A stretch of 64,000 nucleotides of DNA. Origin: a virus (Duplodnaviria; Caudoviricetes). The notes beneath the pieces are model-generated. The model saw only the letters and a list, made by a program, of their open reading frames with translations, had not been told where the DNA came from and did not search any database. The translations under genes were made by a program, and so were the position numbers. The stretch is taken from the IMG/VR virus record IMGVR_UViG_3300033072_000529; one strand, written 5' to 3'. Positions within the stretch are counted from its first letter, which is position 1. Each line of letters starts with the position of its first letter. Shown piece by piece: positions 12,029-60,918 of the stretch.

Positions 12029-12358
12029 TTAATCTGGTAAATTGATTTGTGAAATTATATCAGATACCACGAAAGATTTCAATATTTTAATTTTGGTATT
12101 GGCTAGAGATTCAAAAGGATTGATAATATTATTAGCTATCAATATAGTCCACCATAAGCGATTATCCCCATAGTATCTATTGGCTAGATCATACCAATTA
12201 TCTGATGATGTCATATAGTACTCATCATATAAGGATGCATCAATATCGCCATCTATATATATTGAATTTAATAGATTATAATATTCGTAGCCATCCTCAT
12301 CTGTATAGGTTTGAAATATATTTGCCATGTCTACGGCAGCTAGTTTATTATTAGTCAT
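12029..12358 (-). CDS. baseplate wedge protein gp53-like (LysM-like)
   Basis: LANRYYGDNRLWWTILIANNIINPF motif. Confidence 0.8.
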   Translation of the reverse strand: MTNNKLAAVDMANIFQTYTDEDGYEYYNLLNSIYIDGDIDASLYDEYYMTSSDNWYDLANRYYGDNRLWWTILIANNIINPFESLANTKIKILKSFVVSDIISQINLPD

Positions 12359-13343: not shown

Positions 13344-14078
13344 TTATGATCCTGATACAGGTGGTTTTTTGTATATCTCTAAACGTTCCACTAAGAATTT
13401 GACTAGTTCTGATCTTTTGATATCTTCCACACCAAAAGTTCTAACATGAATGCCATAATTCTGTGCCTCTGCATCCAAAAGTTTTTCATATACTGAACTG
13501 AATTGATTATGTTGTTTAATATCAGTCTGTAAGGAGTCGCCCATCAGAAAAATCTTGCAATTATCTGCACAACGTGTTAATATGGTTAATAGTTCTTTAT
13601 ATAGAATATTTTGGGATTCTTCTACTATGATTACGCAGTCTTTGAAATTTCGTCCCCGTAGATAGGATATAGGCGCAAACTCTATTTTGTCTGATTTTCT
13701 AAATTCTGCCAATTCTTCTTCGGTGATGAAATTAGAACATGCTTCGAAAGCAGTTTGAAACCATTCTTCCACTTTATCGTTTTTAGAACCCGGTAAATAT
13801 CCCAAATGTGCCTGTGATGATTCCACCACACTACGTATATATACGATTTTGTTTATCTTTTGGCGATTTAGTAGATTAAGGGCTGCATACATGGCACATA
13901 CACTTTTACCTGTACCTGCTGGTCCTTCGACAAATATAGCTCTAGAGTTAATATTTAACATCAGCTTTATTAATTCTGATTGTTTCTCTGTCCAGTCAAA
14001 AGGTTCTGATAATAGAATATCGCCTTTTAGTTTTCTTTTTACTTCCCCGATGTTTTTGATGCGGTGTTTAGCTGACAT
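13344..14078 (-). CDS. phoH: PhoH-like ATPase
   Basis: GPAGTGKS, LGYLPG, LRGRNF, IVEESQN, LTR, GD..QTD. Confidence 0.92.
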   Translation of the reverse strand: MSAKHRIKNIGEVKRKLKGDILLSEPFDWTEKQSELIKLMLNINSRAIFVEGPAGTGKSVCAMYAALNLLNRQKINKIVYIRSVVESSQAHLGYLPGSKNDKVEEWFQTAFEACSNFITEEELAEFRKSDKIEFAPISYLRGRNFKDCVIIVEESQNILYKELLTILTRCADNCKIFLMGDSLQTDIKQHNQFSSVYEKLLDAEAQNYGIHVRTFGVEDIKRSELVKFLVERLEIYKKPPVSGS

Positions 14079-14101: not shown

Positions 14102-14587
14102 CTACTTTCCCAGTATAGTGTTTATATTTTTTTCAGTTATTATTATGAACGACACATCGCGTCCTTTTCTTCGTTTTTCTTCACACCATTTCTCTGCTGC
14201 CGCCCATTTATCTTGATTGGTTCTATACGTCATCTGTTCATATAGAATAGTAGATGGCTTCTTATTACCATGTGTAGTAGGTTTCACACATTGCTTAGAT
14301 GGTTTCAGTTCTACTATAAATTCTTTGACTTCTGTTTCCGATATGCGTATACGGAAACAGAAGTCTACAAAATAACGGGCATTTCGTTTCTCTATAGATT
14401 TATAATAAGGTATAACGGTTTGTTCAGAACTCCATGAAATAACATTAGGATTCTTATCCAATACCAACATTAAAGATAATTCTAATCCAGATCGATATAT
14501 TATACGACCTTTATTAGTGCATTTATCCTTGTTTTTTGGGGTGAATACTCCCTGTTTGAATTCCCGATATGTCCTCTTTTTTCCCAT
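14102..14587 (-). CDS. head completion nuclease (T4 gp4-like, TnsA-type)
   Basis: IIYRSGLE...NPNVISWSSE...IPY...RYFVDF...ELKP...NQDKW.AA...IITE. Confidence 0.88.
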   Translation of the reverse strand: MGKKRTYREFKQGVFTPKNKDKCTNKGRIIYRSGLELSLMLVLDKNPNVISWSSEQTVIPYYKSIEKRNARYFVDFCFRIRISETEVKEFIVELKPSKQCVKPTTHGNKKPSTILYEQMTYRTNQDKWAAAEKWCEEKRRKGRDVSFIIITEKNINTILGK

Positions 14588-14828: not shown

Positions 14829-15148
14829 TATTTTAGTAGATCATCTAATGCATTTAGAGCATTAGTTAGTTCTAATTTAGGGTCATCTGTAGATTGTGCA
14901 GATACAGGAGGTACAAACCCGATAATTGGGCCATATTTCAGAATCAAATCTTTTAGTTTGATAAGTGTAGATTCTACACCTGGGACATATTGCTTGATTA
15001 TATTACCCAATTTGGTATTATCGGTTTGTTTGGATACTATTTGAATCACTGCTAAGGCTTTGTCTAGGACAATATAAACAGTGTCGATTGCGGCTTTGAT
15101 TTTGCCGATGTTGGTTGCTATCTTAAATGCTGCGAAAATGTTGGACAT
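14828..15148 (-). CDS. hypothetical protein
   Basis: ORF coupled to downstream gene; TAAGTA upstream. Confidence 0.6.
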   Translation of the reverse strand: MSNIFAAFKIATNIGKIKAAIDTVYIVLDKALAVIQIVSKQTDNTKLGNIIKQYVPGVESTLIKLKDLILKYGPIIGFVPPVSAQSTDDPKLELTNALNALDDLLK

Positions 15149-15205
15149 ATACACTTGTACTTATCTTTTCTCTTGACTTCCCAAAGGGAAGGATTATCAT
15201 ATAGT

Positions 15206-15721
15206 ATGAAAAAAGTTATATCTATACTATTATTAAGTACAATATTTGCGGTGTCTAGTTTGGCCCAGCAAGTACCTCCAACAATTCCTCCTGCGGAATT
15301 GAATACCACCATATCAGAGAAATATTCCTCAGTAGATTTGGCCAAATCCCTAGCATTTAAGCAAGAAGTCAAACGACTAATCAAAGATTTTGCCGACAAG
15401 GGTAATATGGCGTCTGCTAGAAATGTCTATGACTATCTAATCAGCATAGACCCTGATGCAGATGTGTTGAAGACTGACTTTTTTATTAATAAAACCTGGA
15501 AAAGAGAGAATCGATCATTGTATAGATTCGCTCGCGATGGCACAGGCGTTCTGAAAGACAGCGGAACCGTGTCGAATTTCTCCTGGTCTAAAAATGCAGG
15601 GGTAATACACATCATTACATCCCAAGGTGTGCATACCTATGTGCGTTTTGTTACTAAGAATATCGCAGCAATAGGTGAAAACCCTGATCTACCACAGCCT
15701 AAAAAACTAGAATTAAACTGA
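15206..15721 (+). CDS. secreted hypothetical protein
   Basis: Signal peptide MKKVISILLLSTIFAVSSLA; promoter 5 nt upstream supports ATG 15206. Confidence 0.75.
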   Translation: MKKVISILLLSTIFAVSSLAQQVPPTIPPAELNTTISEKYSSVDLAKSLAFKQEVKRLIKDFADKGNMASARNVYDYLISIDPDADVLKTDFFINKTWKRENRSLYRFARDGTGVLKDSGTVSNFSWSKNAGVIHIITSQGVHTYVRFVTKNIAAIGENPDLPQPKKLELN

Positions 15722-16315
15722 TGAGTTGATAAATATCGGTTCTAATTTGTCGATCTTTTTATTAAGGGAATTAAATTGAGGAGCTTTGATCAATACTCGA
15801 TCAAAGCTCTGTTTGTTTATACAGGGGAAACTAGATGCATATTGGGGATTGATATCCAGATGAAACAATACATCTGGAATATTATCCCATATTTTATGAT
15901 AATTTATGCATATGATATCATATGCATATGATGTATTAACATAGTTATCAAAGAATTGTTCATATTGAATTATATCTGTCGGAATAGCCAACAGTTGATC
16001 CCTGGATATATCGCCCAATTGTTTAATCACCTGTGCATGTACTCCGATGTTTCTCCAATGAACATCTCCAAATGATGCACGGGATGCTATGGAGTGTTCT
16101 GGTTTAGAATATAGATATATGACTTTTGCAGGCTCCAACTCCGGTATAGAACTGAATTGTTCGTGGGGTTTACCATCTGCATCAAAAAAAGGCTTACATA
16201 ACACTTTTGGTGGAAATCTACTATGTATATGATACGCCGTATGACCTAAATTGGTCAGAAAATTACACATCATCCAACTACCACATCCCCCATAACTGCA
16301 TACATAGTATATCAT
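15713..16315 (-). CDS. putative sulfotransferase-fold protein
   Basis: N-terminal SYGGCGS (5'-PSB-like loop), KVIYLYSKP..SIAS (3'-PB-like), ICINY. Confidence 0.5.
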   Translation of the reverse strand: MIYYVCSYGGCGSWMMCNFLTNLGHTAYHIHSRFPPKVLCKPFFDADGKPHEQFSSIPELEPAKVIYLYSKPEHSIASRASFGDVHWRNIGVHAQVIKQLGDISRDQLLAIPTDIIQYEQFFDNYVNTSYAYDIICINYHKIWDNIPDVLFHLDINPQYASSFPCINKQSFDRVLIKAPQFNSLNKKIDKLEPIFINSSV

Positions 16316-17115
16316 AACTTAATATATCTATCTATTAGATGTTGTTTGGATTTCAACTGTAAAATTGGAGGTAAGTGTAGATTATAGATTGCCTGGATTT
16401 TTTCGGAAGGATAGAATTGTAAGGGTCTGGTTGAAAAGTTGAGAGTGTTCTGTTTATGATATTGGAAATTATCAGGGCGGTTGATTGTTCCACTTTGTTT
16501 ATGTCCTCTCATGAGTCCTTGATCATGCCAATTGAAACAATATGCTGGTATGCTGTCATCGTCTATCTTTATTTTATCATGTTTGGATAGGTATTCATAC
16601 CAAGATAAATGTTCCCCTCCGCCAGGATGAGGAATATAACCTATATTTCGTATGGTGTCAGTATGCGAAATAATGCTGGCTTCCATGACATTTCCTGCAA
16701 TTTCCGGTAGATCATCGGGTGCACCGGCCCACCACATACTTTTAACAGGTTTCCATGCTAGATAATCAGAGTGGCGATTTATACCATCCCAACATTGCTG
16801 TATGTTCCATGGTAAAAATATATCATCATCATCCCAGCATATATAATATGTTCCAGTTGCATGAGTCATAGCATCCCGTCGAATACTACCCAAATTATTA
16901 TACTCTGTTCCAGTTAGATAATCTGTATTATTATTGATTATTTTTATATTGGATATGTTCTTGAAATCATCTCCCAATACTAGAGGGAATCTCACAGCAG
17001 TATTATATATAATCAACTCTGTGGTGGCAGTTGTATGCTGGTTTAAAAAGAATTGTATAGATCGCTCCACACATTCAAATCTACCATAGGTGGTCATTAC
17101 GCAAGATATATTCAT
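16312..17115 (-). CDS. glycosyltransferase family 2 (GT-A)
   Basis: ISCVMTTYGR, LGSIR, YYICWDDDD. Confidence 0.85.
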   Translation of the reverse strand: MNISCVMTTYGRFECVERSIQFFLNQHTTATTELIIYNTAVRFPLVLGDDFKNISNIKIINNNTDYLTGTEYNNLGSIRRDAMTHATGTYYICWDDDDIFLPWNIQQCWDGINRHSDYLAWKPVKSMWWAGAPDDLPEIAGNVMEASIISHTDTIRNIGYIPHPGGGEHLSWYEYLSKHDKIKIDDDSIPAYCFNWHDQGLMRGHKQSGTINRPDNFQYHKQNTLNFSTRPLQFYPSEKIQAIYNLHLPPILQLKSKQHLIDRYIKL

Positions 17116-17504
17116 GATATTGTGAAAAAGTACGAGGCTTCTTCCATCGTGGGAGGCTCGTATAACGAGTTGGTGTCAGGATATCGTTCATCTCCTGGTC
17201 TTTTTATATAGAAAATTACATCCGGTTGTATGATTTTTCTTAATTCGACAGTAGGACATATGAAATCCAACAATACTATAGAATTGGTAGATTTACCAGC
17301 TAAATCTTTCATACGATGTGCTTGGCGTATCCGTCCTTCTATACTGAAATCCCAATCATTCGCATTTGCTCGTATAATATCAGCATTTAGGTGACAAGAA
17401 TCAGGTAAAATACTGTTTAGTATTTTACTATAAAAGGTTTTACCCGATCCAGGTAAACCGGTGACTAATATTATATGCTTATAAGGTTTGTATGGCATCT
17501 GCAT
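17112..17504 (-). CDS. adenylyl-sulfate (APS) kinase-like protein
   Basis: GLPGSGKT, NAD.IR, DWDFSIEGRIRQA.RM, DFICP, YEPP. Confidence 0.75.
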   Translation of the reverse strand: MQMPYKPYKHIILVTGLPGSGKTFYSKILNSILPDSCHLNADIIRANANDWDFSIEGRIRQAHRMKDLAGKSTNSIVLLDFICPTVELRKIIQPDVIFYIKRPGDERYPDTNSLYEPPTMEEASYFFTIS

Positions 17505-18330
17505 ATATTGAATTCAATTGTTCAGCCGTTAAGCGGGAGGAAAAATGGTCATATATACTTTTGATAAAAGGATGGTTAGGGTCTTTATATATTTCTAGCC
17601 ATCCTACGAAATAATTCCATACTCTATCCTTTAGATCGTTGGTATAGGGCAACCCGTTTGGTCTACCAAAACGGTGATTCCATTTTAAATTAGGAAGGCA
17701 TATACATTTGGCTCCATTTTGGCGGAATTTTTCGTGTATATATCCCTCTTCGCCTCCAAATCCACGGAATAACGGATTGAAACCCAACCATTCAGATGTT
17801 TTACAAGAGAATAATCCTAATCCTTGAGATGGTATTTCAAATGGCTCACCTATCAACATTGCCATATGATTTGACCCCCAAATACCAAACATACCATCTC
17901 GCCATACAGGATCAAATTGTGTTGAATATCCTTGTAAACTATCATCCCATAATGGTCCTTGTATTAAATTTTTAGTGTTCGGATTTTGTGCGTAATACTG
18001 TAGCAAATGTTTAATCCCATCAGGTTCCAACATAACATGGCAATCCAAGCATAAAGTGTATATACCCTGTGCTAATCTGAAAATTTCATTTCTCGTAGAT
18101 GTGCCAGTCTTATCTTTATATGGAACATATCTAGCAGATATGTTTTTATTAGCATAGCCTTCTATGAAATGTTTGATCGCTTTACCATGAGCAGAATCAG
18201 GATTATTATCAACAACTATCAATTCAAATTGTTGATTATTACAACCCTGATATATACGTAGTGCTTGTACAGTGAAATAAACGCCATCGAAATCATCATA
18301 CACTGCCATACCAATCGTTAATTGTTTCAT
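17479..18330 (-). CDS. GT-A glycosyltransferase with DxH and GGEE motifs (GT27/GT60-like)
   Basis: IVVDN, CLDCHV, FRGFGGEE, WNHRF. Confidence 0.8.
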   Translation of the reverse strand: MKQLTIGMAVYDDFDGVYFTVQALRIYQGCNNQQFELIVVDNNPDSAHGKAIKHFIEGYANKNISARYVPYKDKTGTSTRNEIFRLAQGIYTLCLDCHVMLEPDGIKHLLQYYAQNPNTKNLIQGPLWDDSLQGYSTQFDPVWRDGMFGIWGSNHMAMLIGEPFEIPSQGLGLFSCKTSEWLGFNPLFRGFGGEEGYIHEKFRQNGAKCICLPNLKWNHRFGRPNGLPYTNDLKDRVWNYFVGWLEIYKDPNHPFIKSIYDHFSSRLTAEQLNSIYADAIQTL

Positions 18331-18371
18331 ATCGGATATTTACGAATAGCTATTCATAAGTGCAATATCAA

Positions 18372-20030
18372 TTAAGGAGGGGGTGGTGGGTTAGTGGTAG
18401 ATGTAGGAGGATTAGTAGTGGATGAGGTTGGCCCAATGGTAGTAGAAGTGGACGTAGACGTGGTTGACGTTGTGGGAACCACTGTGGTCGTTGTTGTAGA
18501 CGTAGACGTGGTTGTAGACGTTGTAGGCATCAATGTGGTCGTTGGCATTGGTGTGGTGCTTGTGGTCGTTGTAGTGGTCGTTGTAGCACAATCCTCATCG
18601 TATGTCAATACACCTAGTCCATCAGTTATATATTTTCTGATTCCCTCCACATATACCCCGCTGATTAATTTGGTGGTCAACGATGCATTCAAATAAGCTA
18701 TCGGAGAATCATCTAGATAGTATCCTTCTTGAGTATATATCCGCAGTAATGATCTAGGATCAGATGGACATGCATCATAACCCTCATATAATTCGTAAGG
18801 TGGTGGAACATATGGTGCCGGTGTGGTAGTAGGCGGAATAGGCACAGGGGGTGAACAACCATCCTGATATATAGATTCCTTAAGAATGGATAGCGCAGTA
18901 CCAAACAATATATTCTCATTATCATATACTTGCCGAGGCTGTATATAATTAACCAAACACTTAACATTCTGCCCTTTGATAATTGCATCTATATATTTCC
19001 CTATATATGATTCCAATTCAGCAGACCGAGATAGGTAATATATACCATTACATCCCGCTAGTTCATAAGTCAATTTACTTGCACAATCAGTTCCAGTGTA
19101 ATATGTGTTGGGGTCGATATAGGTAAAGCATTTATCATTTTTAGGCGTGCAGAAATTTATATTACCATTAGGAATGTATTCCCAGCCAGTGCTTCGTTTA
19201 ATATAACTAAACACCCCACTGTATGTATTATATATATTTTGGGTATTAAATTTTGAGAGAATATCGGGTGATATTGTATTCAGTCCTTGACTCACCAAAT
19301 TGTTATAAGTGGGTGCCAATAGTTCCCACTGATATATCAGGGTGTATAGTTGATTGATTGAATATTGCTTAAATGTAGCATATTCAGGATGGCTAAGTGT
19401 TCTATTTAAAATCTGAAATGTATTACTGTTAGGTATAGTAGTACTAGATTTGATTATCAAATCTGCCCGGTTTTCTCTTCGAAATATATTGTTTATAGTC
19501 GATATGATCACATCTACGTGATTTTTATAGATTATAAATGTTTGGATATTTTTGGTGGTAAAACCCAATGCTGCTGATACAGCATTCATAGCTTCTATGG
19601 TGATGTTGCTGACTGCCGTATTGTTCAATACATCAGGATCATAATTTTTAACAAAGAATGTCACATTAGCTATTTGTCCTGTGGATACCGTTTGGACGGT
19701 GTTATTCAACCAGTATAATATATCAGAATAGTTTCCGATATATGCGAAAGTTTTAGGATATATTAGGGATAATGGTGTTAGCCAATATCCTTCCAGATTA
19801 GAAACTGTATTAGTAGTATCTCTCCAACCTGCACTAAGGGTGTTGGTAGTAGTGTATAACTGTTGATATAATGCACTGTTATTCTGCATCAGGGTTGTGA
19901 ATGCACGCATTTTAGCCTCTGTGGTATTATAATCACATAGCCGGAAATTGAATAACTGGAAATTTCCATTAATATCCGCTAATGGATTTCCTAGGGAGTC
20001 AAATATATCAATAGTTTTAACAGTGTTCAT
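18372..20030 (-). CDS. putative virion fibre protein with mucin-like Thr/Ser/Pro C-terminal tail
   Basis: N-terminal region paralogous to 20033-20710; ~70-aa Thr-rich tail ending PPPPP. Confidence 0.65.
   Translation of the reverse strand: MNTVKTIDIFDSLGNPLADINGNFQLFNFRLCDYNTTEAKMRAFTTLMQNNSALYQQLYTTTNTLSAGWRDTTNTVSNLEGYWLTPLSLIYPKTFAYIGNYSDILYWLNNTVQTVSTGQIANVTFFVKNYDPDVLNNTAVSNITIEAMNAVSAALGFTTKNIQTFIIYKNHVDVIISTINNIFRRENRADLIIKSSTTIPNSNTFQILNRTLSHPEYATFKQYSINQLYTLIYQWELLAPTYNNLVSQGLNTISPDILSKFNTQNIYNTYSGVFSYIKRSTGWEYIPNGNINFCTPKNDKCFTYIDPNTYYTGTDCASKLTYELAGCNGIYYLSRSAELESYIGKYIDAIIKGQNVKCLVNYIQPRQVYDNENILFGTALSILKESIYQDGCSPPVPIPPTTTPAPYVPPPYELYEGYDACPSDPRSLLRIYTQEGYYLDDSPIAYLNASLTTKLISGVYVEGIRKYITDGLGVLTYDEDCATTTTTTTTSTTPMPTTTLMPTTSTTTSTSTTTTTVVPTTSTTSTSTSTTIGPTSSTTNPPTSTTNPPPPP
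18375..18585 (-). repeat. low-complexity ACN-codon (Thr-rich) coding repeat
   Basis: GTAGACGT/GTGGTCGTT runs on + strand encode TTTTTTTTSTTPMPTTT...NPPPPP. Confidence 0.9.
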
Positions 20031-20032
20031 GG

Positions 20033-20710
20033 TTATTCAAAAATCTTTGTACCATTAGACCATTCGAGATTAGAATCCAAGGTATAGCGTATACCTATGA
20101 ATTTGTTTATAAATTGGTCTTCTAGTGTCAGCGATGCATTGGTTGATCCGCAGTCTACTTTGGATTGGCCTTTTATAGTTATGCGTCTACTTATACATGA
20201 TGTTGTAGCAGTCCAGTTCACTATCTTTGTTCCTATATTGGATGTGGATGATGCGGTACGATTTATGAAATAATACTCGGGAGAAAATATGTATAGAACT
20301 TGACCCGTGATGTAATTCATACATGATCCGTTTCTAGGAGATACGTTCTCATTCAACCATTGTCGTATGACTTCTATATCAGAAGATGCCGTGAATGGAT
20401 ATGGATAGACCAAGGTTATGGGGGATAACCAAAATCCACTCATTTCACTAACAGTTGTAAAGGTATTTTGCCAGCATGCAGAATTTTGTGCAAGGGTCGT
20501 GTATGCACTATTCCAATTAGCACTTAAAGTGGAGAACGTTGTCAATGCTGGATTAAAAGAAACCCTGATTTCATTCTCCACACCGCATACTTGGTAATCT
20601 AATTGTTTAAAATTCAAGTTGATTGCTGATAAACTATTACCGATGGAATCCCCGCCTAAGATAGGATACACATAGTCACAGTCACCGCTTTTACATAAAT
20701 GTAAGGACAT
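20033..20710 (-). CDS. putative structural protein, paralog of upstream fibre N-terminus
   Basis: DSIGNSLSAINLNF...LSANW...GFWLSPITLVYP matches DSLGNPLADINGNF...LSAGW...GYWLTPLSLIYP. Confidence 0.65.
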   Translation of the reverse strand: MSLHLCKSGDCDYVYPILGGDSIGNSLSAINLNFKQLDYQVCGVENEIRVSFNPALTTFSTLSANWNSAYTTLAQNSACWQNTFTTVSEMSGFWLSPITLVYPYPFTASSDIEVIRQWLNENVSPRNGSCMNYITGQVLYIFSPEYYFINRTASSTSNIGTKIVNWTATTSCISRRITIKGQSKVDCGSTNASLTLEDQFINKFIGIRYTLDSNLEWSNGTKIFE

Positions 20711-20714
20711 ATTA

Positions 20715-23700
20715 TTATTTACACACCGTCATACAATCTGTAAATCGTTTACTTGGTAATAACACACAGTTGTTTGCTAAATCATCCCAGGTAATACCTT
20801 TCGCGGATAAATCAGCCCATGTAGTAGGAACCAAACAATTACTACCCATGACATTCCAAGTTCTACTATATGGATATATAGTGGATTCAGTCTGACAATC
20901 AGGGCTCACAGCCGTATTCCAAGTGATGGAACTTAATAATGGATTACTCAATTTATTAGTATCGGTTAATTCCCACCAGGAATATGGATTTATACGATCA
21001 CTGGTATTCTGTGGACTTGTGATAGTGTGAGCATTCCAAGTCCAACATACTGGTCCTTGTGTGAAATTATCCCGAACTTGCAACATATCTTGTAATAAGA
21101 GTAAATTATTATAAACTCCGTCAATACTTCTATTGATAGTGTCCCAGGTCACTAATTCATTTATACCCAACAAGGAATAATTCAATGCCGAGAGGGATAT
21201 TTCCGATGCTCTTATATTATCTATGGTGTGTGATAATAGCTCGAAATTGGAATCATATTTCGCGACAAATTTATATTGTATATCCTTCGCTAATAGATAG
21301 ATATTATCATTTAGTTTTTTAAATGTATCATTATATACCACGGGAGATACCAATTCGGGGGAGGTCACTAACATGGAATCGATACTCCATGCAGATGCAT
21401 AGAACTGATGCGTATCCACTGATAAAGGTTCCAAATATTCTAGATATTTGGTTAGTCCGTATGGATTAGATATATACATCTCATTGCCATTGAATGCCAA
21501 ACCTGTAGCAGAAGTGGTCAATATATTGGAACCGATTCTCAATCCATATATGGTATAGGATTTAATAATCGAGCCCGATATTACATATAATAGTTCATTA
21601 TGGAAATATATTTTAGTACCTGTGGATATTGTGAAAGTCCGAACAAGATTCAATGTGGAATCATATAGATAAACCTGTCCTGATTCTGTCAAGACCGCTA
21701 TATATGAGTCATTTGCAGCTACCGCTAGGGGTATATTCGTTCCCGCCCAATCTATGTTGCGAAGATCGCCAATCCAATTGAAGTATGCATTATATATTTT
21801 AACGGTCGGTTCTCCTTGGTCCACAATATAGATATTATCATCTGTATCAATCGTCATATCCATAGGCTTATTCAAATGAATATGTGAATAAGCTGGACCT
21901 GAACCACCCCAATATTGAGCCAACGTCATATCATCTTCAAATGCATAAATGGATTTCTTATCTTTATCCAATACTACTATTTTACTATTTGTATTATTGT
22001 ATACTATTCGAATTGGCTTGACAAACACTTCGCTGGGCGTTATGCTTCGCGCAGACAAGCCCAATGATACTGTAAAATCATTATTCCAAATTTTGATAGT
22101 GTCATCATCAATAATATAAAATTTTCCATCATTATAATATACATCTCCAATATTATGGATTTTATCCGAATATATAGGTGTAGCAAATGTGTTATCCCAA
22201 TGCCATTGTAATGTGGCATTTCTCTCTCCCAACCATCCAATATATTGTTTTGGTAATACTGAATTATAAGTGTATGCCATGCTACTTAGATAGACAATAT
22301 TGGTGTTAATTTTATTGATTGTGCTATTGAGTACAGATTCTAATTGCCAATCATTTGGAGAAATTTGGATATCATTCAAATTATATGGTAATGTGATTTG
22401 ATCGGGGAATTCTCTGATGATATTTTTATCCCAGGTTGGGAAAGAATCACGTATTAAGAAATAGTTTGGCCAAGTCCGTATAATCGGTGATCTACCATCT
22501 GCATAATACCCTGTCATACTAGGAGTATATGTCCCTTCGTTTAGGTATTGTGCGTATATAGGTTCAGATGCACCACTTAATGTAGTAGTTCCAGTATTTG
22601 TACCATCTGTGAAATCAAAATGATCAAATATATCAGGGGTTTGGTTCGATATGCTGATCATCTCACTGGTAGCATATATATTACGGGGAGAGAAAATTTC
22701 TAGATATGGACCATCATATGCTGTCAGTGTTACAACATTGGTTGTTATTTTCTGTGTTATCGGACAAGTATCATAAGGATAATTAGCTGGAGTTTTAATC
22801 ATATTACCTGATAGCGATAATGTGAACACGTTATAACTATTTTCAGTTATATGGAACTGGTTTGTTTTGTCAAAATTAAACTCGTTATTATATGTGAAGC
22901 TGTTACCTGTGAATGATAATTCGTCGGAAACACTGGTTAATCCGGTTTGTGCACTACTAAGAACCCATACTGCATTGGTTGATAATGCAGTATAATTTGT
23001 GGATACATAATTTACGTTTACTATAAACGGTGCATACTTATTAATTGATAAATTCAGATCAGGTGTATTGAGTATAATTGATGGGTTTATAGTTTGCGGA
23101 GTTCTAGGGGTTATCCATCCATTGAATACTGTTGTTCCAGTCGAACTAGCACCATTATATATGGTTATTGGATCGGTTGGCACGAATATATTATTAAATG
23201 CGGATACGTTTATGGATGATATAGGTGATATATCAGAAAATGTTACGCCTATGGTTTCTATATTAGATGTAGAGCTTACTTGTTTAGTACCAATTTTATA
23301 GATATATTGATCAAATCCGCCAAATGTGGATATTATGAAATTTTGTGTACCACATGGGCGCAGATAACGTAATCCACCAGAAGACAGATAGGTATTGTCT
23401 TCTATGTTTAATTTAGTTGTAGGTTGGAATTTATATTCAGGGAAAGCTATGAATTCCAGTTTACGGGGAGTAGAACCCAACACATTAATGCATATTTCAT
23501 CTGTAAAATCATATGCACCAAATCCACCATATTTAGGAATAGCGTCTATAGCTGATATTCTCATACAGTGGGTAGCAGTAAGCGGGAATGTGGCGGATAT
23601 ACCAGTATGTATGGTGTTATCAGGATATAACCATCTGATTTCTCCATAAGATGAGAAATCTTCCAGTATAGCAGATGCAGAAACATTTACAGATGAAGAT

Positions 23701-53390: not shown

Positions 53391-53568
53391 TCCTATTCTA
53401 CAATTGGTAGAAATCAGTGATTTAATAGGTGCAATCGACCTATATGTTCGTAAGTACAATATAACAGTGGATGATGCACTTAGTATGGCTAAGTTGACTA
53501 ATTCTGCTTTTGAAGATGGTACTCGCGTGCGACATGATGACTCTACAGAACACAATAATATTAGGTGA
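53290..53568 (+). CDS. MazG-like NTP pyrophosphohydrolase
   Basis: KIEEEFLEL.DA.......VEISDL (EExxE...ExxD). Confidence 0.7.
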   Translation: MAYHLTPIPKGIPGEFSKIEEEFLELRDAVQQNNPILQLVEISDLIGAIDLYVRKYNITVDDALSMAKLTNSAFEDGTRVRHDDSTEHNNIR

Positions 53569-54376
53569 TGGATACATAGGTTCCGCCTATACAGCAGAAG
53601 GTTATACAGGTATAGGTAGAAAAGACTGGGAATATATTCCCGGTTATTTCTCCACCCTTATCCCGTATATCGATCCCTATGATTATATCATAAATTGTAT
53701 CGGTTATACCGATACAAAATGGTCGGAAGATGACCGTAATTTCAAGAAACTCTGGTACACCAATGCTGTATTCGTACAAGAATTGGCGGAGTTTTGCGCC
53801 AAACGTAATAAAAAATTAATACATTTATCCACTACTGATCTATACGGTAACGGCCATGATTTTGCGAAAAACACCGAAGATCGAAAAGATTTAGATGTTG
53901 GGACTAACTATAGATATAGTAAATATGCCGCAGAACGGTTTTGTGATTTGAACCGTGATCTAATTCTACGTATACGTCTACCTTTTGATGGTAGACAACA
54001 TCCGAAAAATTTACTAGTTAAAGCGCAGAAATATACTAAATTTTATCAGTTCACCACTGATTACACATATGTACCTGATTTAATCGCAGCATCATCAGTG
54101 TTATCAGAGCAGGTAGGTATATTCAACGTAGTATCACATGAAGATGACACCTTGTTGAACCTGATGAAAAATATATTAATGCTGCCGCAGTTTCAGCATA
54201 TTGATCCATATAATGAGAATGACCCTAATATCATTCGAGATATAAATGACATACATGTTCATAACACATGTAATGATACTAAATTATGGAATTTGTATAA
54301 ATCAACTAATCTACATGCTGCCGCCATTATATCATACAACAAATTAACATCTATCATTGACAAACCATCAATGTAA
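53534..54376 (+). CDS. NAD-dependent sugar-nucleotide reductase/epimerase (RmlD-like)
   Basis: ILGDGYIG, IINCIG, LIHLST, YRYSK, LRIRLP. Confidence 0.8.
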   Translation: MMTLQNTIILGDGYIGSAYTAEGYTGIGRKDWEYIPGYFSTLIPYIDPYDYIINCIGYTDTKWSEDDRNFKKLWYTNAVFVQELAEFCAKRNKKLIHLSTTDLYGNGHDFAKNTEDRKDLDVGTNYRYSKYAAERFCDLNRDLILRIRLPFDGRQHPKNLLVKAQKYTKFYQFTTDYTYVPDLIAASSVLSEQVGIFNVVSHEDDTLLNLMKNILMLPQFQHIDPYNENDPNIIRDINDIHVHNTCNDTKLWNLYKSTNLHAAAIISYNKLTSIIDKPSM

Positions 54377-54389
54377 CGTAACATACGCC

Positions 54390-55067
54390 ATGAAAATCGG
54401 ATACAAAGCAACAGAAAATATGAAATGTATCAACCTTATATATGAGGTTGGCAAGACATACACCATTGATAGTATGGAAATATGTAGCCATGGATTCCAC
54501 TTTTGTAAAGTAGCAAAAGATGTATTGAATTATTATGATTATGATAAAGGTTTCGTCCTATTGGAACTAGAAATCCTAGGCGATGTGATTGATGAAGGTA
54601 ATAAATCCGTTACTAATAAAGTTAAAGTCCTTAGAATCATCCCTAAGGAAGAATATCCAACTCTACTGGATATTGAAGTAGATGATAATGGTAATAAACT
54701 TTACCAAAAAGATGAATATGAAGGCGATCATCGTTACGAGTATGATGACAGAGGAAATATGATTTACCATACAAATACATGCGGAGAAGAATATCACTAC
54801 AAGTATGATGAACAAGGTAATATGATTTATTATAAAGATTCCTATGGAAGGGAATATCATTGGAAGTATGATGAGAAAGGTAATAAGATTTATAAGCAAG
54901 ATTTCCTAGGAAATGAATATCATTGGAAATATGAATATGATGAGAAAGGTAATAAGATTTATGAAAAAGATTCCAATGGAAGAGAATATCATTGGCAGTA
55001 CGATGAGAAAGGTAACGCTATATCACTGCAATCAGCAGACGCTAATTGGAATATAACAATTGAATAA
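54390..55067 (+). CDS. phage protein with conserved N-terminal domain + YD-like repeats (paralog 1)
   Basis: GYKA...YEVGKTY...C..GFHFC domain; EYHWKYDEKGNKIY repeats. Confidence 0.8.
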   Translation: MKIGYKATENMKCINLIYEVGKTYTIDSMEICSHGFHFCKVAKDVLNYYDYDKGFVLLELEILGDVIDEGNKSVTNKVKVLRIIPKEEYPTLLDIEVDDNGNKLYQKDEYEGDHRYEYDDRGNMIYHTNTCGEEYHYKYDEQGNMIYYKDSYGREYHWKYDEKGNKIYKQDFLGNEYHWKYEYDEKGNKIYEKDSNGREYHWQYDEKGNAISLQSADANWNITIE

Positions 55068-56030
55068 TATGAAAATAGGATATAAAGCAACATATAATAT
55101 GAAGTGCCTGAACCTTACGTATGAGGTTGGAAAGACATACACCATTGACAAAATGAAAATCTGTAGCCATGGATTTCATTTTTGTAAAGTGACTAAAGAT
55201 GTACTAAATTATTATCCATATACAAAAGATTTTATTCTACTAGAATTAGAAATCTTGGGTGATGTAATTGATGAAGCGGATAAATCAGTTACAAATATGA
55301 TGAAAGTCCTTAGAATCATCCCTAAGGAAGAACATATAACACTATTGGATATTAAATTTGATGAGCGGGGTAATATGATTTATAAGCAAGATTCATATGG
55401 AAATGAATATCATTGGAAGTATGATTATGATGAGAAAGGTAATGTGATTGCTTATAAAGATTCCAATGGAAGGGAATATCACTACAAGTATGATGAAAAA
55501 GGGAATAAGATTTATGAAAAAGATTCCTTTGGATATGAATATCATTGGAAGTATGATCATAAAGGGAATATGATTTCTTATAAAGATTCCAATGGAAGGG
55601 AATGTCATTGGAAGTATGATGAAAAAGGTAATAAGATTTATCAGACAGATTTCCTGGGAGATGAATATCATTGGAAATATGATGAGAAAGGTAATAAGAT
55701 TTATGAAAAAAATTCCAATGGAAATGAATATCATTGGAAATATGAATATGATGAGAAAGGTAATGTGCTTTATAAGCAAGATTCCAATGGAAGGGAATAT
55801 CATTGGAAGTATGATGAAAAAGGTAATAAGATTTATCAGAAATATTCCAATGGAAGGGAATATCATTGGAAATATGAATATGATGAACAAGGTAATATGA
55901 TTTATTATAGAGATGCCTTTGGAAATGAATATCATTGGAAGTATGATGAGAAAGGGAATAAGATTTATCAGACAGATTCCAATGGAAATGAATATCACTG
56001 GAAGTATAATGAGAAAGGGAATACCATAGA
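54670..56030 (+). repeat. coding tandem repeats, 63/69-bp units
   Basis: GAATATCATTGGAAGTATGATGAGAAAGGTAATAAGATTTAT...GATTCCAATGGAA recurring in both paralogs. Confidence 0.9.
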
Positions 56031-56073
56031 ATATTCTGATAAAGATATTAAGTGGACTATAACAATCGAATAA
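55069..56073 (+). CDS. phage protein with conserved N-terminal domain + YD-like repeats (paralog 2)
   Basis: Near-identical N-terminus to paralog 1, about twice as many repeats. Confidence 0.8.
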   Translation: MKIGYKATYNMKCLNLTYEVGKTYTIDKMKICSHGFHFCKVTKDVLNYYPYTKDFILLELEILGDVIDEADKSVTNMMKVLRIIPKEEHITLLDIKFDERGNMIYKQDSYGNEYHWKYDYDEKGNVIAYKDSNGREYHYKYDEKGNKIYEKDSFGYEYHWKYDHKGNMISYKDSNGRECHWKYDEKGNKIYQTDFLGDEYHWKYDEKGNKIYEKNSNGNEYHWKYEYDEKGNVLYKQDSNGREYHWKYDEKGNKIYQKYSNGREYHWKYEYDEQGNMIYYRDAFGNEYHWKYDEKGNKIYQTDSNGNEYHWKYNEKGNTIEYSDKDIKWTITIE

Positions 56074-58716: not shown

Positions 58717-59151
58717 ATGTACAATATAAACCGTAGATACAATCCCGACATTGAAGCTCCGAGAGAATCATACGATACCTTTCAAGGTAAATGTATTAGA
58801 TGGTCACGTCTAAGTGATGATGTAAGCATTAATCCAGTACGTAATCATTTAGCTAATACATCCGCTATTGATATAACAGACACCGCACGTATATGTAATA
58901 TGGATAGTAAATTACATAGATATATAACATATGGATATAATTATATTAATACCCATATTAATACCCATATTACCCATCGTAGTAGACTATCTGATTTGCC
59001 ATTGACATGGTTTGCTATTCCGGCTGCAACCTGTATAGGGAGTCAGGGCGTAAAAAACCCCTCAATGGTTATTGACTTAACATATAAACCTGTTAATGAA
59101 ATCAGCGCATACCCCAATACGTATATATCAGAAGATTCTAGAAACAGATGA
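58717..59151 (+). CDS. short paralog array member 6
   Basis: MYNIN...SEDSRNR. Confidence 0.6.
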   Translation: MYNINRRYNPDIEAPRESYDTFQGKCIRWSRLSDDVSINPVRNHLANTSAIDITDTARICNMDSKLHRYITYGYNYINTHINTHITHRSRLSDLPLTWFAIPAATCIGSQGVKNPSMVIDLTYKPVNEISAYPNTYISEDSRNR

Positions 59152-59189
59152 AAGAACAACCCTTTGAACTAAGTATTATTTCAGCGTAT

Positions 59190-60914: not shown

Positions 60915-60918
60915 GTTT

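What the first reader, a model, noticed from the sequence alone, without database searches (positions are those of the whole stretch)
15713..20030. Candidate phage mucin-type O-glycosylation + sulfation system decorating a virion protein
Seen: a late operon (TAAATA 6 nt before 18330) of GT-A (DxH 'LDCH', 'FGGEE', 'WNHRF'), APS-kinase-like, second GT2 and sulfotransferase-fold genes. It lies 41 nt downstream of a fibre-like gene ending in a ~70-aa mucin-like Thr/Ser/Pro tail. Known: DxH plus WGGEN-type motifs characterise GT27 polypeptide GalNAc-transferases (and related GT60), which initiate O-glycans on protein hydroxyls; APS kinase makes PAPS, the sulfotransferase donor; Verrucomicrobia and Planctomycetes are specialists in sulfated-glycan degradation. 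Inference: the phage builds a sulfated O-glycan brush on its virion, for shielding, stability, or as a substrate mimic binding host glycan-uptake machinery. The RmlD-like gene (53534) might supply a nucleotide sugar. This is the strongest candidate for an undescribed system in the window.
Basis: partly seen in the sequence, partly recalled or inferred. Interest (0 to 1): 0.85.

Follow-up and report, generated by a model that had tools for sequence, protein, structure and literature searches.

The report
Phage mucin-type glycosylation and sulfation cassette
A large T4-like phage encodes a fibre-like protein with a threonine-rich, mucin-like tail, followed by an enzyme shaped like the animal enzymes that start mucin sugar-coating plus a sulfate-activating kinase and a sulfotransferase-like protein, so it probably coats that tail with sulfated sugars, though no chemistry has been measured.

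Summary
Four overlapping minus-strand genes (18330 to 15713) follow, after 41 nt, a 552-aa ORF that ends in a 74-residue Thr/Ser/Pro tail. A TAAATA motif lies 6 nt before the first ATG. That motif and spacing recur at 12 of 78 window ORFs, against about 0.14 expected.

- **First transferase (17479-18330):** its best structural matches are all GT27 polypeptide GalNAc-transferases. The DxH, FGGEE and distal His motifs align with those of GalNAc-T10.
- **Link to Thr-rich proteins:** a Thr-rich coding tract lies within 1.5 kb upstream on the same strand in 12/77 viral and 23/74 bacterial loci of this family. Control positions give 0-4 of about 150. The upstream proteins fall into at least 8 unrelated groups.
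- **Kinase (130 aa):** it belongs to a phage mini-kinase family whose profile best matches APS kinases. In 11 of 80 viral loci this family sits beside canonical sulfotransferases.
- **Last gene:** it folds confidently and resembles sulfotransferases most, but lacks the usual Lys/Arg of the PAPS loop.

My reading is a late, cytoplasmic O-glycosylation cassette for the adjacent tail (about 0.75). Sulfation of the glycan is less certain (about 0.55). This scan noted the transferase/Thr-tract pairing earlier on DNA of at least 31 other genomes. I found no paper describing it. The sulfation module is what is special here.

The parts
18372..20030 (-). Fibre-like late protein (552 aa) with a mucin-like C-terminal tail. 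This is the proposed acceptor.
   Evidence: ORF. No Pfam, PHROG or NCBIfam match. Residues 11-112 are 36% identical to the N-terminus of the upstream 225-aa ORF (E 2e-16). Homologues sit at the same position in L009, L010, L046 and L388.
18375..18596 (-). Thr/Ser/Pro-rich tail, residues 479-552. It runs to the last codon and ends in PPPPP.
   Evidence: 38 T, 12 P and 11 S in the last 75 residues. The richest 40-residue window is 87.5% T+S+P. It is the only such tract among the window's 78 ORFs.
18337..18342 (-). TAAATA late-promoter-like motif, 6 nt before the ATG of the first transferase.
   Evidence: Sequence. The motif lies 5-7 nt before 12 of 78 ORF starts, against about 0.14 expected.
17479..18330 (-). 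Soluble GT-A glycosyltransferase with a polypeptide-GalNAc-transferase-like (GT27-like) catalytic domain. Proposed initiating O-glycosyltransferase.
   Evidence: AF2 model, pLDDT 94.3. All top Foldseek PDB hits shown are GT27 enzymes (E 4e-14, TM 0.69-0.76). DxH, FGGEE and H219 align with LDSH, WGGEQ and GH of GalNAc-T10. A Thr-rich ORF lies directly upstream in many loci.
17112..17504 (-). Mini APS-kinase-like P-loop kinase (130 aa). Proposed PAPS supplier.
   Evidence: PF01583 scores 25.3 bits, above the 21.1 cut-off. phrog_10255 'kinase' 3.5e-19. The family profile's full-domain (residues ~4-85) PDB matches are led by 2yvu (1.3e-10) and some 20 further APS-kinase or PAPS-synthase chains (down to ~1e-4). 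A canonical sulfotransferase lies next to the family in 11 of 80 viral loci.
16312..17115 (-). Second GT2-type glycosyltransferase (267 aa, WDDDD motif). Proposed extending transferase.
   Evidence: PF00535 2e-6. Weak SpsA match. Homologues accompany the first transferase in 8 of 80 viral and 9 of 80 bacterial loci.
15713..16315 (-). Compact sulfotransferase-fold protein (200 aa). Proposed glycan sulfotransferase, though atypical.
   Evidence: AF2 model, pLDDT 96.4. The top 20 of 48,161 chains by VIA-align are all sulfotransferases (Z 8.7-6.8). Foldseek's top hits are sulfotransferases, but weakly. The family profile hits sulfotransferases at the 3'-phosphate-binding motif (E 0.003). Relatives are fused to GT2, GT9, GT10, GT25 or Stealth domains.
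20033..20710 (-). 225-aa late ORF sharing the N-terminal domain of the Thr-rich protein. It has its own TAAATA motif 5 nt before the start. Context only.

Best explanation
This is a late-expressed, cytoplasmic protein O-glycosylation cassette that serves the gene just upstream.

1. The 283-aa transferase is a stripped-down catalytic domain of the kind that starts mucin-type O-glycosylation. It has a Mn2+ site of D96, H98 and H219 and a WGGE-type loop. It puts a first sugar on the Thr/Ser hydroxyls of the 74-residue C-terminal tail of the fibre-like protein while particles are assembled.
2. The second GT2 adds a further sugar.
3. The 130-aa kinase turns host APS into PAPS.
4. The 200-aa sulfotransferase-fold protein moves sulfate from PAPS onto the glycan.

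The result would be a negatively charged, mucin-like brush on a tail or baseplate appendage.

Shown: the genes, their order, the late-type promoter motif, the folds, the conserved catalytic positions of the first transferase, and the statistical pairing of this transferase with upstream Thr-rich tracts and of the kinase family with sulfotransferases.

Inferred: acceptor, donor sugars, PAPS use, virion location and biological role.

My odds: glycosylation of the tail about 0.75, the added sulfation about 0.55 given glycosylation, and the whole chain as stated about 0.45-0.55.
For: **Fold and motifs.** The model has pLDDT 94.3. All Foldseek PDB hits shown, to rank 47, are GT27 enzymes: GalNAc-T1, T2, T4, T7, T10 and T12, Toxoplasma T3 and PGANT9 (E about 4e-14). 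A profile alignment to GalNAc-T10 puts LDCH on LDSH, FGGEE on WGGEQ and WNHRF on VGHIY. These residues are invariant in 35 homologues.

**Pairing with Thr-rich proteins.**
- The ORF immediately upstream of the transferase is Thr/Ser/Pro-rich in L003, L004, L005, L006, L009, L010, L011, L030, L036, L037 and L046, and in the window.
- With the tracts masked, these proteins form at least 8 unrelated groups.
- An ORF-free test finds Thr-rich tracts within 1.5 kb upstream on the same strand in 12/77 viral and 23/74 bacterial loci. The controls give 0/151 upstream on the opposite strand, 1/153 downstream on the same strand and 4/153 downstream on the opposite strand.
- On the transferase tree the trait needs at least 23 changes, 11 of them forced by supported branches, so it is not one inherited block.
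- In the reverse direction, 4 of 80 arbitrary poly-Thr viral loci hold a 40-47% identical transferase. In 3 of them it starts within about 110 nt after the tract.
- Thr-rich ORFs make up 13 of 273 ORFs in such loci, against 2 of 918 in transferase-free viral loci.
- L388 is a close relative whose fibre homologue has no Thr tail. It also lacks the transferase.

**Variable decorating genes.** The genes after the transferase differ between loci: GT2, GT32-like, GT29 sialyltransferase-like, polysialyltransferase-like and FkbM or other methyltransferases. This is as expected for a conserved initiator with varied finishing enzymes.

**Timing.** The late-type motif lies 6 nt before the ATG.

**Sulfation.**
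- The kinase family profile best matches APS kinases.
- That family lies beside canonical sulfotransferases (PF13469 4e-15) in 11 of 80 viral loci.
- The 200-aa protein folds closest to sulfotransferases and keeps the YRNP...S and YE..L-type motifs at family level.
- Its relatives are fused to glycan-building domains.
Against: - No glycan, sulfate or virion proteome has been measured.
- In about 52 of 80 viral loci, which form one syntenic lineage, the transferase sits in a replication module (dNMP kinase, PD-(D/E)XK nuclease, primase, DnaB, Pol III alpha) with no Thr-rich neighbour. The five such genomes that I examined do carry Thr/Ser-tract proteins elsewhere.
- The sequence-level link to GT27 is weak (E 0.05). 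The best sequence hit is the wall-teichoic-acid transferase TarP.
- The sulfotransferase-like protein lacks the Lys/Arg of the 5'-phosphosulfate loop (SYGGCGS, where a canonical phage enzyme has LPRSGST). In this copy it also lacks the Arg of the 3'-phosphate motif.
- The structural Z scores of that protein are only moderate.
- The kinase has N in place of the first Asp of the DGD motif and lacks the lid.
- Neither the kinase nor the 200-aa protein accompanies the transferase in any other locus sampled.
- No ATP sulfurylase is known in the phage.
- The Thr-rich protein has no recognisable structural-protein family.
Confidence: 0.5

Rival explanations
1. The tail is O-glycosylated by the two transferases, but the kinase and the 200-aa protein do not sulfate it. 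They would add or process another group, for example phosphorylate a sugar or serve nucleotide or cofactor metabolism. Or they are unrelated cargo of this hypervariable region.
For: - The 200-aa protein lacks the loop Lys/Arg that canonical sulfotransferases use. It gets no Pfam sulfotransferase hit itself.
- P-loop kinases appear in its structural hit list at Z 5-6.8.
- Its family in 80 viral loci, mostly giant-virus bins, never has the kinase beside it.
- Most members of the kinase family (69 of 80 loci) have no sulfotransferase nearby. In Xylella phage Sano the kinase lies among early genes.
- L388 has the kinase but neither the Thr tail nor the GT27-like enzyme.
Against: Two independent weak calls converge on one pathway inside one four-gene operon. 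The kinase family profile prefers APS kinases by several orders of magnitude over other kinases. It is repeatedly adjacent to true sulfotransferases. All top 20 structural matches of the 200-aa protein are sulfotransferases.
Confidence: 0.25
2. The transferases do not act on the phage protein. They would modify phage DNA bases (hydroxymethyl-pyrimidine glycosylation), or host envelope glycans such as LPS, capsule or teichoic-acid-like polymers.
For: - In about 52 viral loci the transferase lies between a dNMP kinase/PD-(D/E)XK nuclease and replisome genes.
- Phage GT-A enzymes that glycosylate 5hmC are documented. By that preprint's account their closest cellular look-alikes include ribitol-phosphate (teichoic-acid) transferases (bioRxiv 10.1101/2023.12.21.572611).
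- The best sequence-level PDB hit here is TarP.
Against: - The structural matches are uniformly protein O-GalNAc transferases.
- The family is common in ordinary bacterial chromosomes, with 374 hits in Bradyrhizobium, Desulfobulbaceae, Arenicellales, Chloroflexota and others.
- The same-strand upstream Thr-tract association has no explanation under this reading.
- No methyltransferase, TET or thymidylate-synthase-like gene flanks the transferase here. The flanking ORFs matched none in Pfam, and the rest of the 272-kb genome was not available.
- Expression looks late, and the protein has no membrane segment.
Confidence: 0.12
3. The Thr-rich tail is an unmodified flexible or extended linker, and its position next to the glycan genes is a by-product of both being accessory cargo in the fibre region.
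For: Thr/Pro-rich linkers are common in secreted and structural proteins. Fibre regions of T4-like phages are known hot spots for gene exchange (general knowledge).
Against: - The directional controls (0-4 of about 150 against 35 of 151).
- The 20-fold enrichment over other viral loci.
- Recurrence in bacteria and across at least 8 unrelated Thr-rich proteins.
- Joint presence or absence in close relatives.
Confidence: 0.08

Closest known systems
Eukaryotic polypeptide N-acetylgalactosaminyltransferases (CAZy GT27; e.g. human GalNAc-T2 2ffu/4d0z, GalNAc-T10 2d7i, Toxoplasma GalNAc-T3 8ujf)
   Same: GT-A catalytic domain with DxH plus a distal His as the metal site, and a WGGE-type Gal/GalNAc-T loop. 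These are the best structural matches. The acceptor logic is the same: dense Thr/Ser/Pro tracts.
   Different: - Only 283 aa, with no ricin-type lectin domain, signal anchor or stem, so it would act in the cytoplasm and not in the Golgi.
- 12-19% identity over the structural alignments, and sequence-profile E of only 0.05.
- Donor sugar and stereochemistry are unknown.
- Encoded by phages and bacteria.
Mycobacteriophage virion glycosylation (Freeman et al. 2023, Cell Host Microbe 31:1216, as cited in PMC12619734; the paper itself was not held)
   Same: Phage-encoded glycosyltransferases decorate the C-termini of the phage's own structural proteins in the cytoplasm.
   Different: - There the targets are the capsid and tail-tube subunits of actinophages.
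- I found no report of a GT27-like initiator, a long mucin-like tract or a sulfation module.
- Homology between the enzymes could not be tested here.
APS kinase CysC / PAPS synthase kinase domain (PF01583; e.g. 2yvu, 1d6j, 2ofx) working with PAPS-dependent sulfotransferases (PF00685, PF13469)
   Same: - P-loop, the NAD..R (DGD..R-like) motif, the DWDFS..GR.RQ..R motif and the CPT (SPY-like) motif line up with the APS-kinase core.
- The family is adjacent to true sulfotransferases in 11 viral loci.
- The 200-aa protein shares the sulfotransferase fold and a 3'-phosphate-type motif.
   Different: - The kinase is about 50 residues shorter (no lid), and the first Asp of DGD is Asn.
- It is far below the NCBIfam equivalog cut-offs.
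- The sulfotransferase-like protein is about 80 residues shorter than solved enzymes and lacks the loop Lys/Arg.
Phage GT-A DNA glycosyltransferases acting on 5hmC (Pyle et al., bioRxiv 10.1101/2023.12.21.572611)
   Same: Small soluble phage GT-A enzymes, often followed by further transferases that extend the glycan.
   Different: By that preprint's account those enzymes sit beside cytosine methyltransferase and TET-like dioxygenase genes, and they resemble the base-J glucosyltransferase and ribitol-phosphate (teichoic-acid) transferases. Here the neighbours are a Thr-rich protein and sulfation-type genes, and the fold matches protein O-GalNAc transferases.

Membership tests
GT27 polypeptide GalNAc-transferase | GT-A catalytic domain closest in structure to GT27 enzymes | tested here: met
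   All Foldseek PDB hits shown, to rank 47, are GT27 enzymes (E 4e-14 to 1e-11, TM by query 0.62-0.76).
GT27 polypeptide GalNAc-transferase | DxH metal motif plus a distal His, and the Gal/GalNAc-T (WGGE) motif | tested here: met
   LDCH, FGGEE and WNHRF align to LDSH, WGGEQ and VGHIY of GalNAc-T10. D96, H98, G192, E194, E195 and H219 are invariant.
GT27 polypeptide GalNAc-transferase | C-terminal ricin-type lectin domain and N-terminal membrane anchor (Golgi type II topology) | tested here: not met
   The protein is 283 aa, and the model is a single GT-A domain starting at residue 4. No further Pfam domain is found.
GT27 polypeptide GalNAc-transferase | Significant sequence-family membership | tested here: inconclusive
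   Pfam finds only PF00535 over residues 8-118. Profile against GalNAc-T10 gives E 0.05, while TarP scores better on the N-terminal half. CAZy/dbCAN models were not available.
GT27 polypeptide GalNAc-transferase | UDP-GalNAc donor, retaining transfer to Ser/Thr of a polypeptide | not testable with these tools
   Needs enzymology. The acceptor is inferred from gene association.
GT2 (Pfam PF00535) | Match above the Pfam gathering score | tested here: met
   31.0 and 28.2 bits against a cut-off of 23.3 for 17479-18330 and 16312-17115.
APS kinase (CysC, PF01583) | Match above the Pfam gathering score, with APS kinases as best solved relatives | tested here: met
   25.3 bits against 21.1. The family profile's full-domain PDB matches are led by 2yvu (1.3e-10) and some 20 further APS-kinase or PAPS-synthase chains (down to ~1e-4); two large multi-kinase-domain chains score between them on P-loop stretches only.
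APS kinase (CysC, PF01583) | Curated equivalog score (NCBIfam TIGR00455 and related) | tested here: not met
   20.3 bits against a cut-off of 138.7.
APS kinase (CysC, PF01583) | Core motifs: P-loop, DGD..R, F/R/R of the APS pocket, S-P-Y, and the lid | tested here: inconclusive
   Invariant in the family: GSGK, N40-A-D42..R45, F53, R58, Q61 and R64; P84 is nearly invariant. The first Asp is Asn, and the lid segment is missing.
APS kinase (CysC, PF01583) | Genomic partnership with a PAPS consumer | tested here: met
   A canonical sulfotransferase (PF13469 3.8e-15, PF00685 1.3e-9) is adjacent or within 1-3 genes in 11 of 80 viral loci of the family.
PAPS-dependent sulfotransferase (PF00685 / PF13469) | Sulfotransferase fold | tested here: met
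   Model pLDDT 96.4. The top 20 of 48,161 chains are all sulfotransferases (Z 8.7-6.8, 147-173 residues aligned). Foldseek's top hits are the same class, at E 3e-3 to 0.1.
PAPS-dependent sulfotransferase (PF00685 / PF13469) | 5'-phosphosulfate-binding loop with Lys/Arg (PKxGTT / PRSGST) | tested here: not met
   The loop is S-Y-G-G-C-G-S with no basic residue in any of 39 family members. The canonical phage enzyme has LPRSGST.
PAPS-dependent sulfotransferase (PF00685 / PF13469) | 3'-phosphate-binding motif R-x-P-x(5)-S | tested here: inconclusive
   The family consensus is IYIYRxP.....S, aligned to IYIYRNPKD..IS of the top hit, mouse amine sulfotransferase 7v1o. The window protein and its nearest kin have YSKPEHSIAS, with no Arg.
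PAPS-dependent sulfotransferase (PF00685 / PF13469) | Pfam model match | tested here: not met
   No hit for the window protein. There are sub-threshold PF00685 hits in three relatives (E 3e-4 to 4e-3).
Phage DNA-base glycosyltransferase system | Neighbouring base-modifying genes (C5-methyltransferase, TET-like dioxygenase, hydroxymethylase) | tested here: inconclusive
   None flanks the operon. Most of the 272-kb genome was not available. In other phages the transferase lies near a dNMP kinase.

The most novel reading that the evidence does not exclude
Tailed phages and many bacteria share an undescribed cytoplasmic mucin-type O-glycosylation system. Its initiating enzyme would be an evolutionary cousin of the animal GalNAc-transferases. 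In this phage the system has been extended with its own PAPS supply and a new, compact class of sulfotransferase that is also widespread in giant viruses. The phage would then carry a sulfomucin-like brush on its fibres. Since the host is probably a planctomycete or verrucomicrobium, a group specialised on sulfated glycans, the brush could serve as bait that docks the particle to the host's glycan-capture machinery.
Probability: 0.12. Interest if true: 0.92.

Novelty: new variant of a known kind. Interest (0 to 1): 0.8.

Why it matters
Mucin-type O-glycosylation is taught as a eukaryotic Golgi process. Protein glycosylation of phage particles has been shown only for a few mycobacteriophages.

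This family is large. More than 2,500 sequence clusters are at least 50% identical to this protein, with hundreds of viral contigs and 374 bacterial species. If its enzyme glycosylates adjacent Thr-rich tracts, three things follow:
- a whole layer of phage and bacterial surface chemistry has been missed;
- the origin of the GT27 fold becomes testable;
- Thr-rich 'linkers' in thousands of aquatic phage fibres would need re-reading as glycan carriers that may affect host range, stability and grazing or immune recognition.

The sulfation module would be the first phage-encoded protein-glycan sulfation pathway. It would also give a function to a compact sulfotransferase-like family common in giant viruses. 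All four enzymes are small and soluble, so the claim can be tested directly by co-expression with the 74-residue tail.

Tried and rejected
**Tools and searches that gave nothing**
- No whole genome is held for this window. ATP sulfurylase, base-modification genes and other Thr-rich proteins elsewhere in the 272-kb phage could therefore not be searched.
- The 50,697 deposited phage genomes gave no match for the operon DNA, the first transferase, the Thr-rich protein without its tail or the 1747-aa neighbour.
- The ESM Atlas gave no usable lead for the Thr-rich protein (scores 0.79 or less, TM 0.35 or less).
- Neighbours of the 200-aa family in viral contigs were giant-virus core genes (topoisomerase, A32-like ATPase, M13 peptidase), which say nothing about its role.
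- hhalign of the 200-aa family against a canonical phage sulfotransferase was not significant (probability 1.3%). Only a YE..L-type C-terminal segment aligned.
- The sigma-70 promoter and terminator scans of 15000-20800 were at shuffle level.
- Tandem Repeats Finder found only weak, short arrays in the tail's DNA.
- No RNA holder was listed among public runs.
- Laying contigs of four runs showed identical sequence in two runs of one study and short near-identical pieces (0-1 differences; two divergent pieces aside) in two wastewater metagenomes. There was no length variant of the tail.
- Complex prediction was not used. An enzyme with a disordered substrate is a poor case for it.
- The library of papers returned no report of a phage GT27-like enzyme, of phage mucin-like glycoproteins or of phage-encoded virion sulfation. 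The Freeman 2023 paper is not held.

**Reading I considered and set aside**
- That the replication-module context makes this a DNA glycosyltransferase. See the rival explanations.

Full report
**What is there**

On the minus strand, a 1747-aa ORF (25958-20715) and a 225-aa ORF (20710-20033) are followed by a 552-aa ORF (20030-18372). After 41 nt come four genes that overlap one another by 26, 4 and 4 nt: 18330-17479, 17504-17112, 17115-16312 and 16315-15713.

The block lies in the baseplate and head-completion region of a T4-like phage:
- a gp4-type head-completion gene at 14102-14587;
- PhoH at 13344-14078;
- a gp53-like baseplate wedge gene at 12029-12358.

The window's own protein is recorded on a contig of 272,063 bases. 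The last 74 residues of the 552-aa protein are 38 T, 12 P and 11 S and run to the stop codon. It is the only such tract among the window's 78 ORFs.

**The promoter claim**

TAAATA lies at 18337-18342, 6 nt before the ATG. I tested whether this is chance. TAA[AG]TA lies 5-7 nt before the start of 12 of 78 non-overlapping ORFs, among them four baseplate-region genes and the 225-aa ORF. About 0.14 would be expected from the motif's density, and only 4 occurrences fall at the other 34 offsets. The operon therefore carries the phage's late-type motif in the leaderless arrangement typical of this genome.

**The first transferase**

- Pfam sees only the N-terminal GT2 nucleotide-binding half.
- With 35 homologues the AlphaFold model is confident (pLDDT 94.3).
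- Every Foldseek PDB hit shown, to rank 47, is a polypeptide GalNAc-transferase (E 4e-14 to 1e-11, TM 0.62-0.76).
- The family profile aligns LDCH with the LDSH metal motif of GalNAc-T10, FGGEE with WGGEQ, and WNHRF with the VGHIY that carries the third metal ligand.
- These residues are invariant.
- The protein has no lectin domain, anchor or signal sequence, so it is a bare, cytoplasmic GT27-like catalytic domain.
- It works like a GT27 enzyme on every testable point. Family membership by sequence is not established (E 0.05), because TarP scores higher on the generic N-terminal half.

**Is the Thr-rich tail its acceptor?**

This rests on comparative genomics, which came out strongly. The family is large:
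- more than 2,500 clusters at 50-66% identity;
- 287 viral stretches;
- 374 hits in one-per-species bacterial genomes.

The evidence for the pairing:
- In L003, L004, L005, L006, L009, L010, L011, L030, L036, L037 and L046 the ORF that ends just before the transferase is Thr/Ser/Pro-rich.
- With the tracts masked, these proteins form at least 8 unrelated groups. Some carry Mtd/FGE-sulfatase-type and glycine-rich domains typical of receptor-binding fibres. One locus has an Mtd_N/phage-tail-repeat protein just downstream.
- An ORF-free test looked for a stop-free 25-residue window with at least 70% T+S+P and at least 35% T. It is positive within 1.5 kb upstream on the same strand in 12/77 viral and 23/74 bacterial loci. 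It is positive in 0/151 upstream on the other strand, 1/153 downstream on the same strand and 4/153 downstream on the other strand.
- On a tree of 146 transferases the trait needs at least 23 changes, 11 of them forced by supported branches. The virus/bacterium label needs only 5. The pairing is therefore spread over the family and is not one inherited block.
- In reverse, 4 of 80 arbitrary viral loci holding twelve consecutive ACN codons contain a 40-47% identical transferase. Three of these start within about 110 nt after the tract, on the same strand.
- Thr-rich ORFs are 13 of 273 in such loci, against 2 of 918 in viral loci without the transferase.
- Relatives of this phage give a natural control. 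In L010 the fibre homologue carries the tail and the transferase follows. In L009 and L046 a separate Thr-rich ORF is inserted between them. In L388 there is neither tail nor transferase.

**The exception**

About 52 of the 80 best viral loci belong to one syntenic lineage. There the transferase sits between a dNMP kinase, a PD-(D/E)XK nuclease and the replisome genes. This is the main support for a DNA-glycosylation rival, since phage GT-A enzymes that glycosylate 5hmC exist (bioRxiv 10.1101/2023.12.21.572611). However, all five genomes of that lineage that I examined carry Thr or Thr/Ser-tract proteins elsewhere. The family's presence in ordinary bacterial chromosomes also argues against a DNA role.

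**Downstream genes vary**

After the transferase, different loci carry the following:
- the second GT2;
- a GT32-like DXD transferase;
- GT29 sialyltransferase-like genes (E 2e-18 and 5e-13);
- polysialyltransferase/capsule-like genes;
- FkbM and other methyltransferases.

This is the pattern of a conserved initiator with interchangeable finishing enzymes. The window's version of the finishing set is a GT2, a kinase and the 200-aa protein.

**The kinase**

The single sequence is ambiguous between APS kinase and seryl-tRNA(Sec) kinase. It belongs to a family of at least 808 small proteins of 120-160 aa from aquatic metagenomes and from Xylella, Stenotrophomonas and Ralstonia phages. The family profile's full-domain PDB matches are APS kinases and PAPS synthase kinase domains, led by 2yvu at E 1.3e-10, some twenty in all down to about 1e-4, with PSTK (1.6e-5) ranking among the weaker of them.

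The invariant N-A-D..R, DWDFS..GR.RQ..R and the conserved C-P-T motifs match the DGD..R, F/R/R and S-P-Y elements of the APS pocket. The first Asp is Asn, and the lid is missing.

Most telling, in 11 of 80 viral loci of this family a canonical sulfotransferase (PF13469 3.8e-15, PF00685 1.3e-9) is adjacent or within three genes. SDR sugar dehydratases, carbamoyltransferases and FkbM methyltransferases are often nearby as well. I read the family as a phage PAPS-supplying kinase.

**The 200-aa protein**

- It has no Pfam match and only 196 relatives among 1.8 billion representatives.
- Several relatives are fused to GT2, GT9, GT10, GT25, Stealth or methyltransferase domains. Three give sub-threshold PF00685 hits.
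- The model is very confident (pLDDT 96.4).
- By VIA-align the top 20 of 48,161 chains are all sulfotransferases (Z 8.7-6.8). P-loop kinases follow at Z 6.8 or less.
- Foldseek agrees, but weakly.
- The family profile hits sulfotransferases at the 3'-phosphate motif (E 0.003).
- Against this, the phosphate loop is SYGGCGS, without the Lys/Arg of all canonical enzymes. This copy has Ser-Lys where most relatives have Arg-Asn.
- The family is common in giant-virus bins, and there it has no kinase beside it.

PAPS use remains unproven.

**Synthesis**

The sulfation half rests on two moderate, independent calls that converge within one operon. Virion location is inferred from the following:
- the late motif;
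- the position among fibre and baseplate genes;
- the N-terminal domain shared with the neighbouring 225-aa ORF (36% identity, E 2e-16);
- the fibre-type domains of Thr-rich partners in other phages.

The RmlD-like SDR at 53510-54376 exists, but nothing ties it to this operon.

**Relation to earlier notes and to the literature**

After I had reached this reading, the scan's notebook showed that the same pairing of a Thr-rich protein with a GT27-like transferase had been reported on DNA of at least 31 other genomes, with the same closest known family. My tests were run independently and agree. Those notes also mention a 17.5-kb island of transferases elsewhere in this genome, which I did not check.

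The paper library returned no description of such a system in phages. The nearest published case is glycosylation of mycobacteriophage capsid and tail-tube C-termini (cited in PMC12619734). What this window adds is the kinase plus sulfotransferase-fold pair inside the cassette. That pair did not accompany the transferase in any other locus sampled.

Noticed in passing
window, 12 ORF starts (e.g. 571, 3051, 10446, 12019, 12358, 13334, 18330, 20710, 30032, 49674, 63372, 63547): TAA[AG]TA sits 5-7 nt before the start codon of 12 of 78 ORFs, against about 0.14 expected. This leaves no room for a Shine-Dalgarno site and suggests leaderless late transcripts.
   Followed up: partly
L005:8851-9417 and L006:7340-7900: GT29 (eukaryote-type sialyltransferase) family genes (Pfam E 2e-18 and 5e-13) follow the GT27-like transferase and a poly-Thr protein, directly in L005 and one gene further on in L006. 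Formally this is the enzyme pair that makes sialyl-Tn in animals.
   Followed up: no
L394-L398, L408, L421, L427, L448, L453, L456, L464: The mini APS-kinase family lies beside canonical sulfotransferases, often with carbamoyltransferases and SDR sugar dehydratases. This suggests that phage-encoded glycan sulfation modules are widespread.
   Followed up: partly
L213-L290 (many GVMAG contigs); proteins P0128, P0131, P0135, P0175, P0177: The 200-aa sulfotransferase-fold family is common in giant-virus metagenome bins. It also occurs fused to GT2, GT9, GT10, GT25, Stealth and methyltransferase domains, in proteins of up to 1416 aa.
   Followed up: partly
L020-L080 (about 52 loci): In one syntenic phage lineage the GT27-like transferase lies inside the replication module. 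The order is DnaB, primase, dNMP kinase, PD-(D/E)XK nuclease, transferase, a Lys/Glu-rich protein with a conserved Cys/Trp C-terminus, then Pol III alpha.
   Followed up: partly
L291, L339, L358 and other bacterial loci: Bacterial genomes, or phage contigs binned with them, hold 1778-1951-aa Thr-rich proteins directly upstream of a 286-303-aa homologue of the transferase. In many other bacterial loci the transferase ORF appears much longer (600-1300 aa); these may be fusions or start-codon artefacts in GC-rich DNA.
   Followed up: no
window 59148-62223: A DUF1549/DUF1553 (PSCyt2/PSD1) plus DUF1501 gene pair, a signature of Planctomycetes and Verrucomicrobia, is carried by the phage (Pfam E 3e-33, 3e-21 and 8e-82).
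   Followed up: partly
window 54357-56073: Two adjacent paralogous ORFs have DUF7666 plus RHS repeats, just after the SDR/RmlD-like gene.
   Followed up: no
window 15155-15721 (+): A convergent ORF overlaps the end of the operon by 9 nt. From an internal Met it encodes a signal-peptide-like N-terminus (MKKVISILLLSTIFAVSSLAQQ). A weak homologue sits at the same relative place in L046.
   Followed up: no
L081 (Xylella phage Sano 15406-16143): In Sano-like phages the mini kinase is the N-terminal half of a 245-aa protein with a faint cytidylyltransferase-like C-terminal part. It lies near a gene annotated as cysteine dioxygenase and a MazG-like gene.
   Followed up: no
window 15700-20100 in public runs X3, X4: Short pieces identical or nearly identical to the operon occur at low depth in two wastewater metagenomes of another study, so the phage or a very close relative lives there.
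   Followed up: partly
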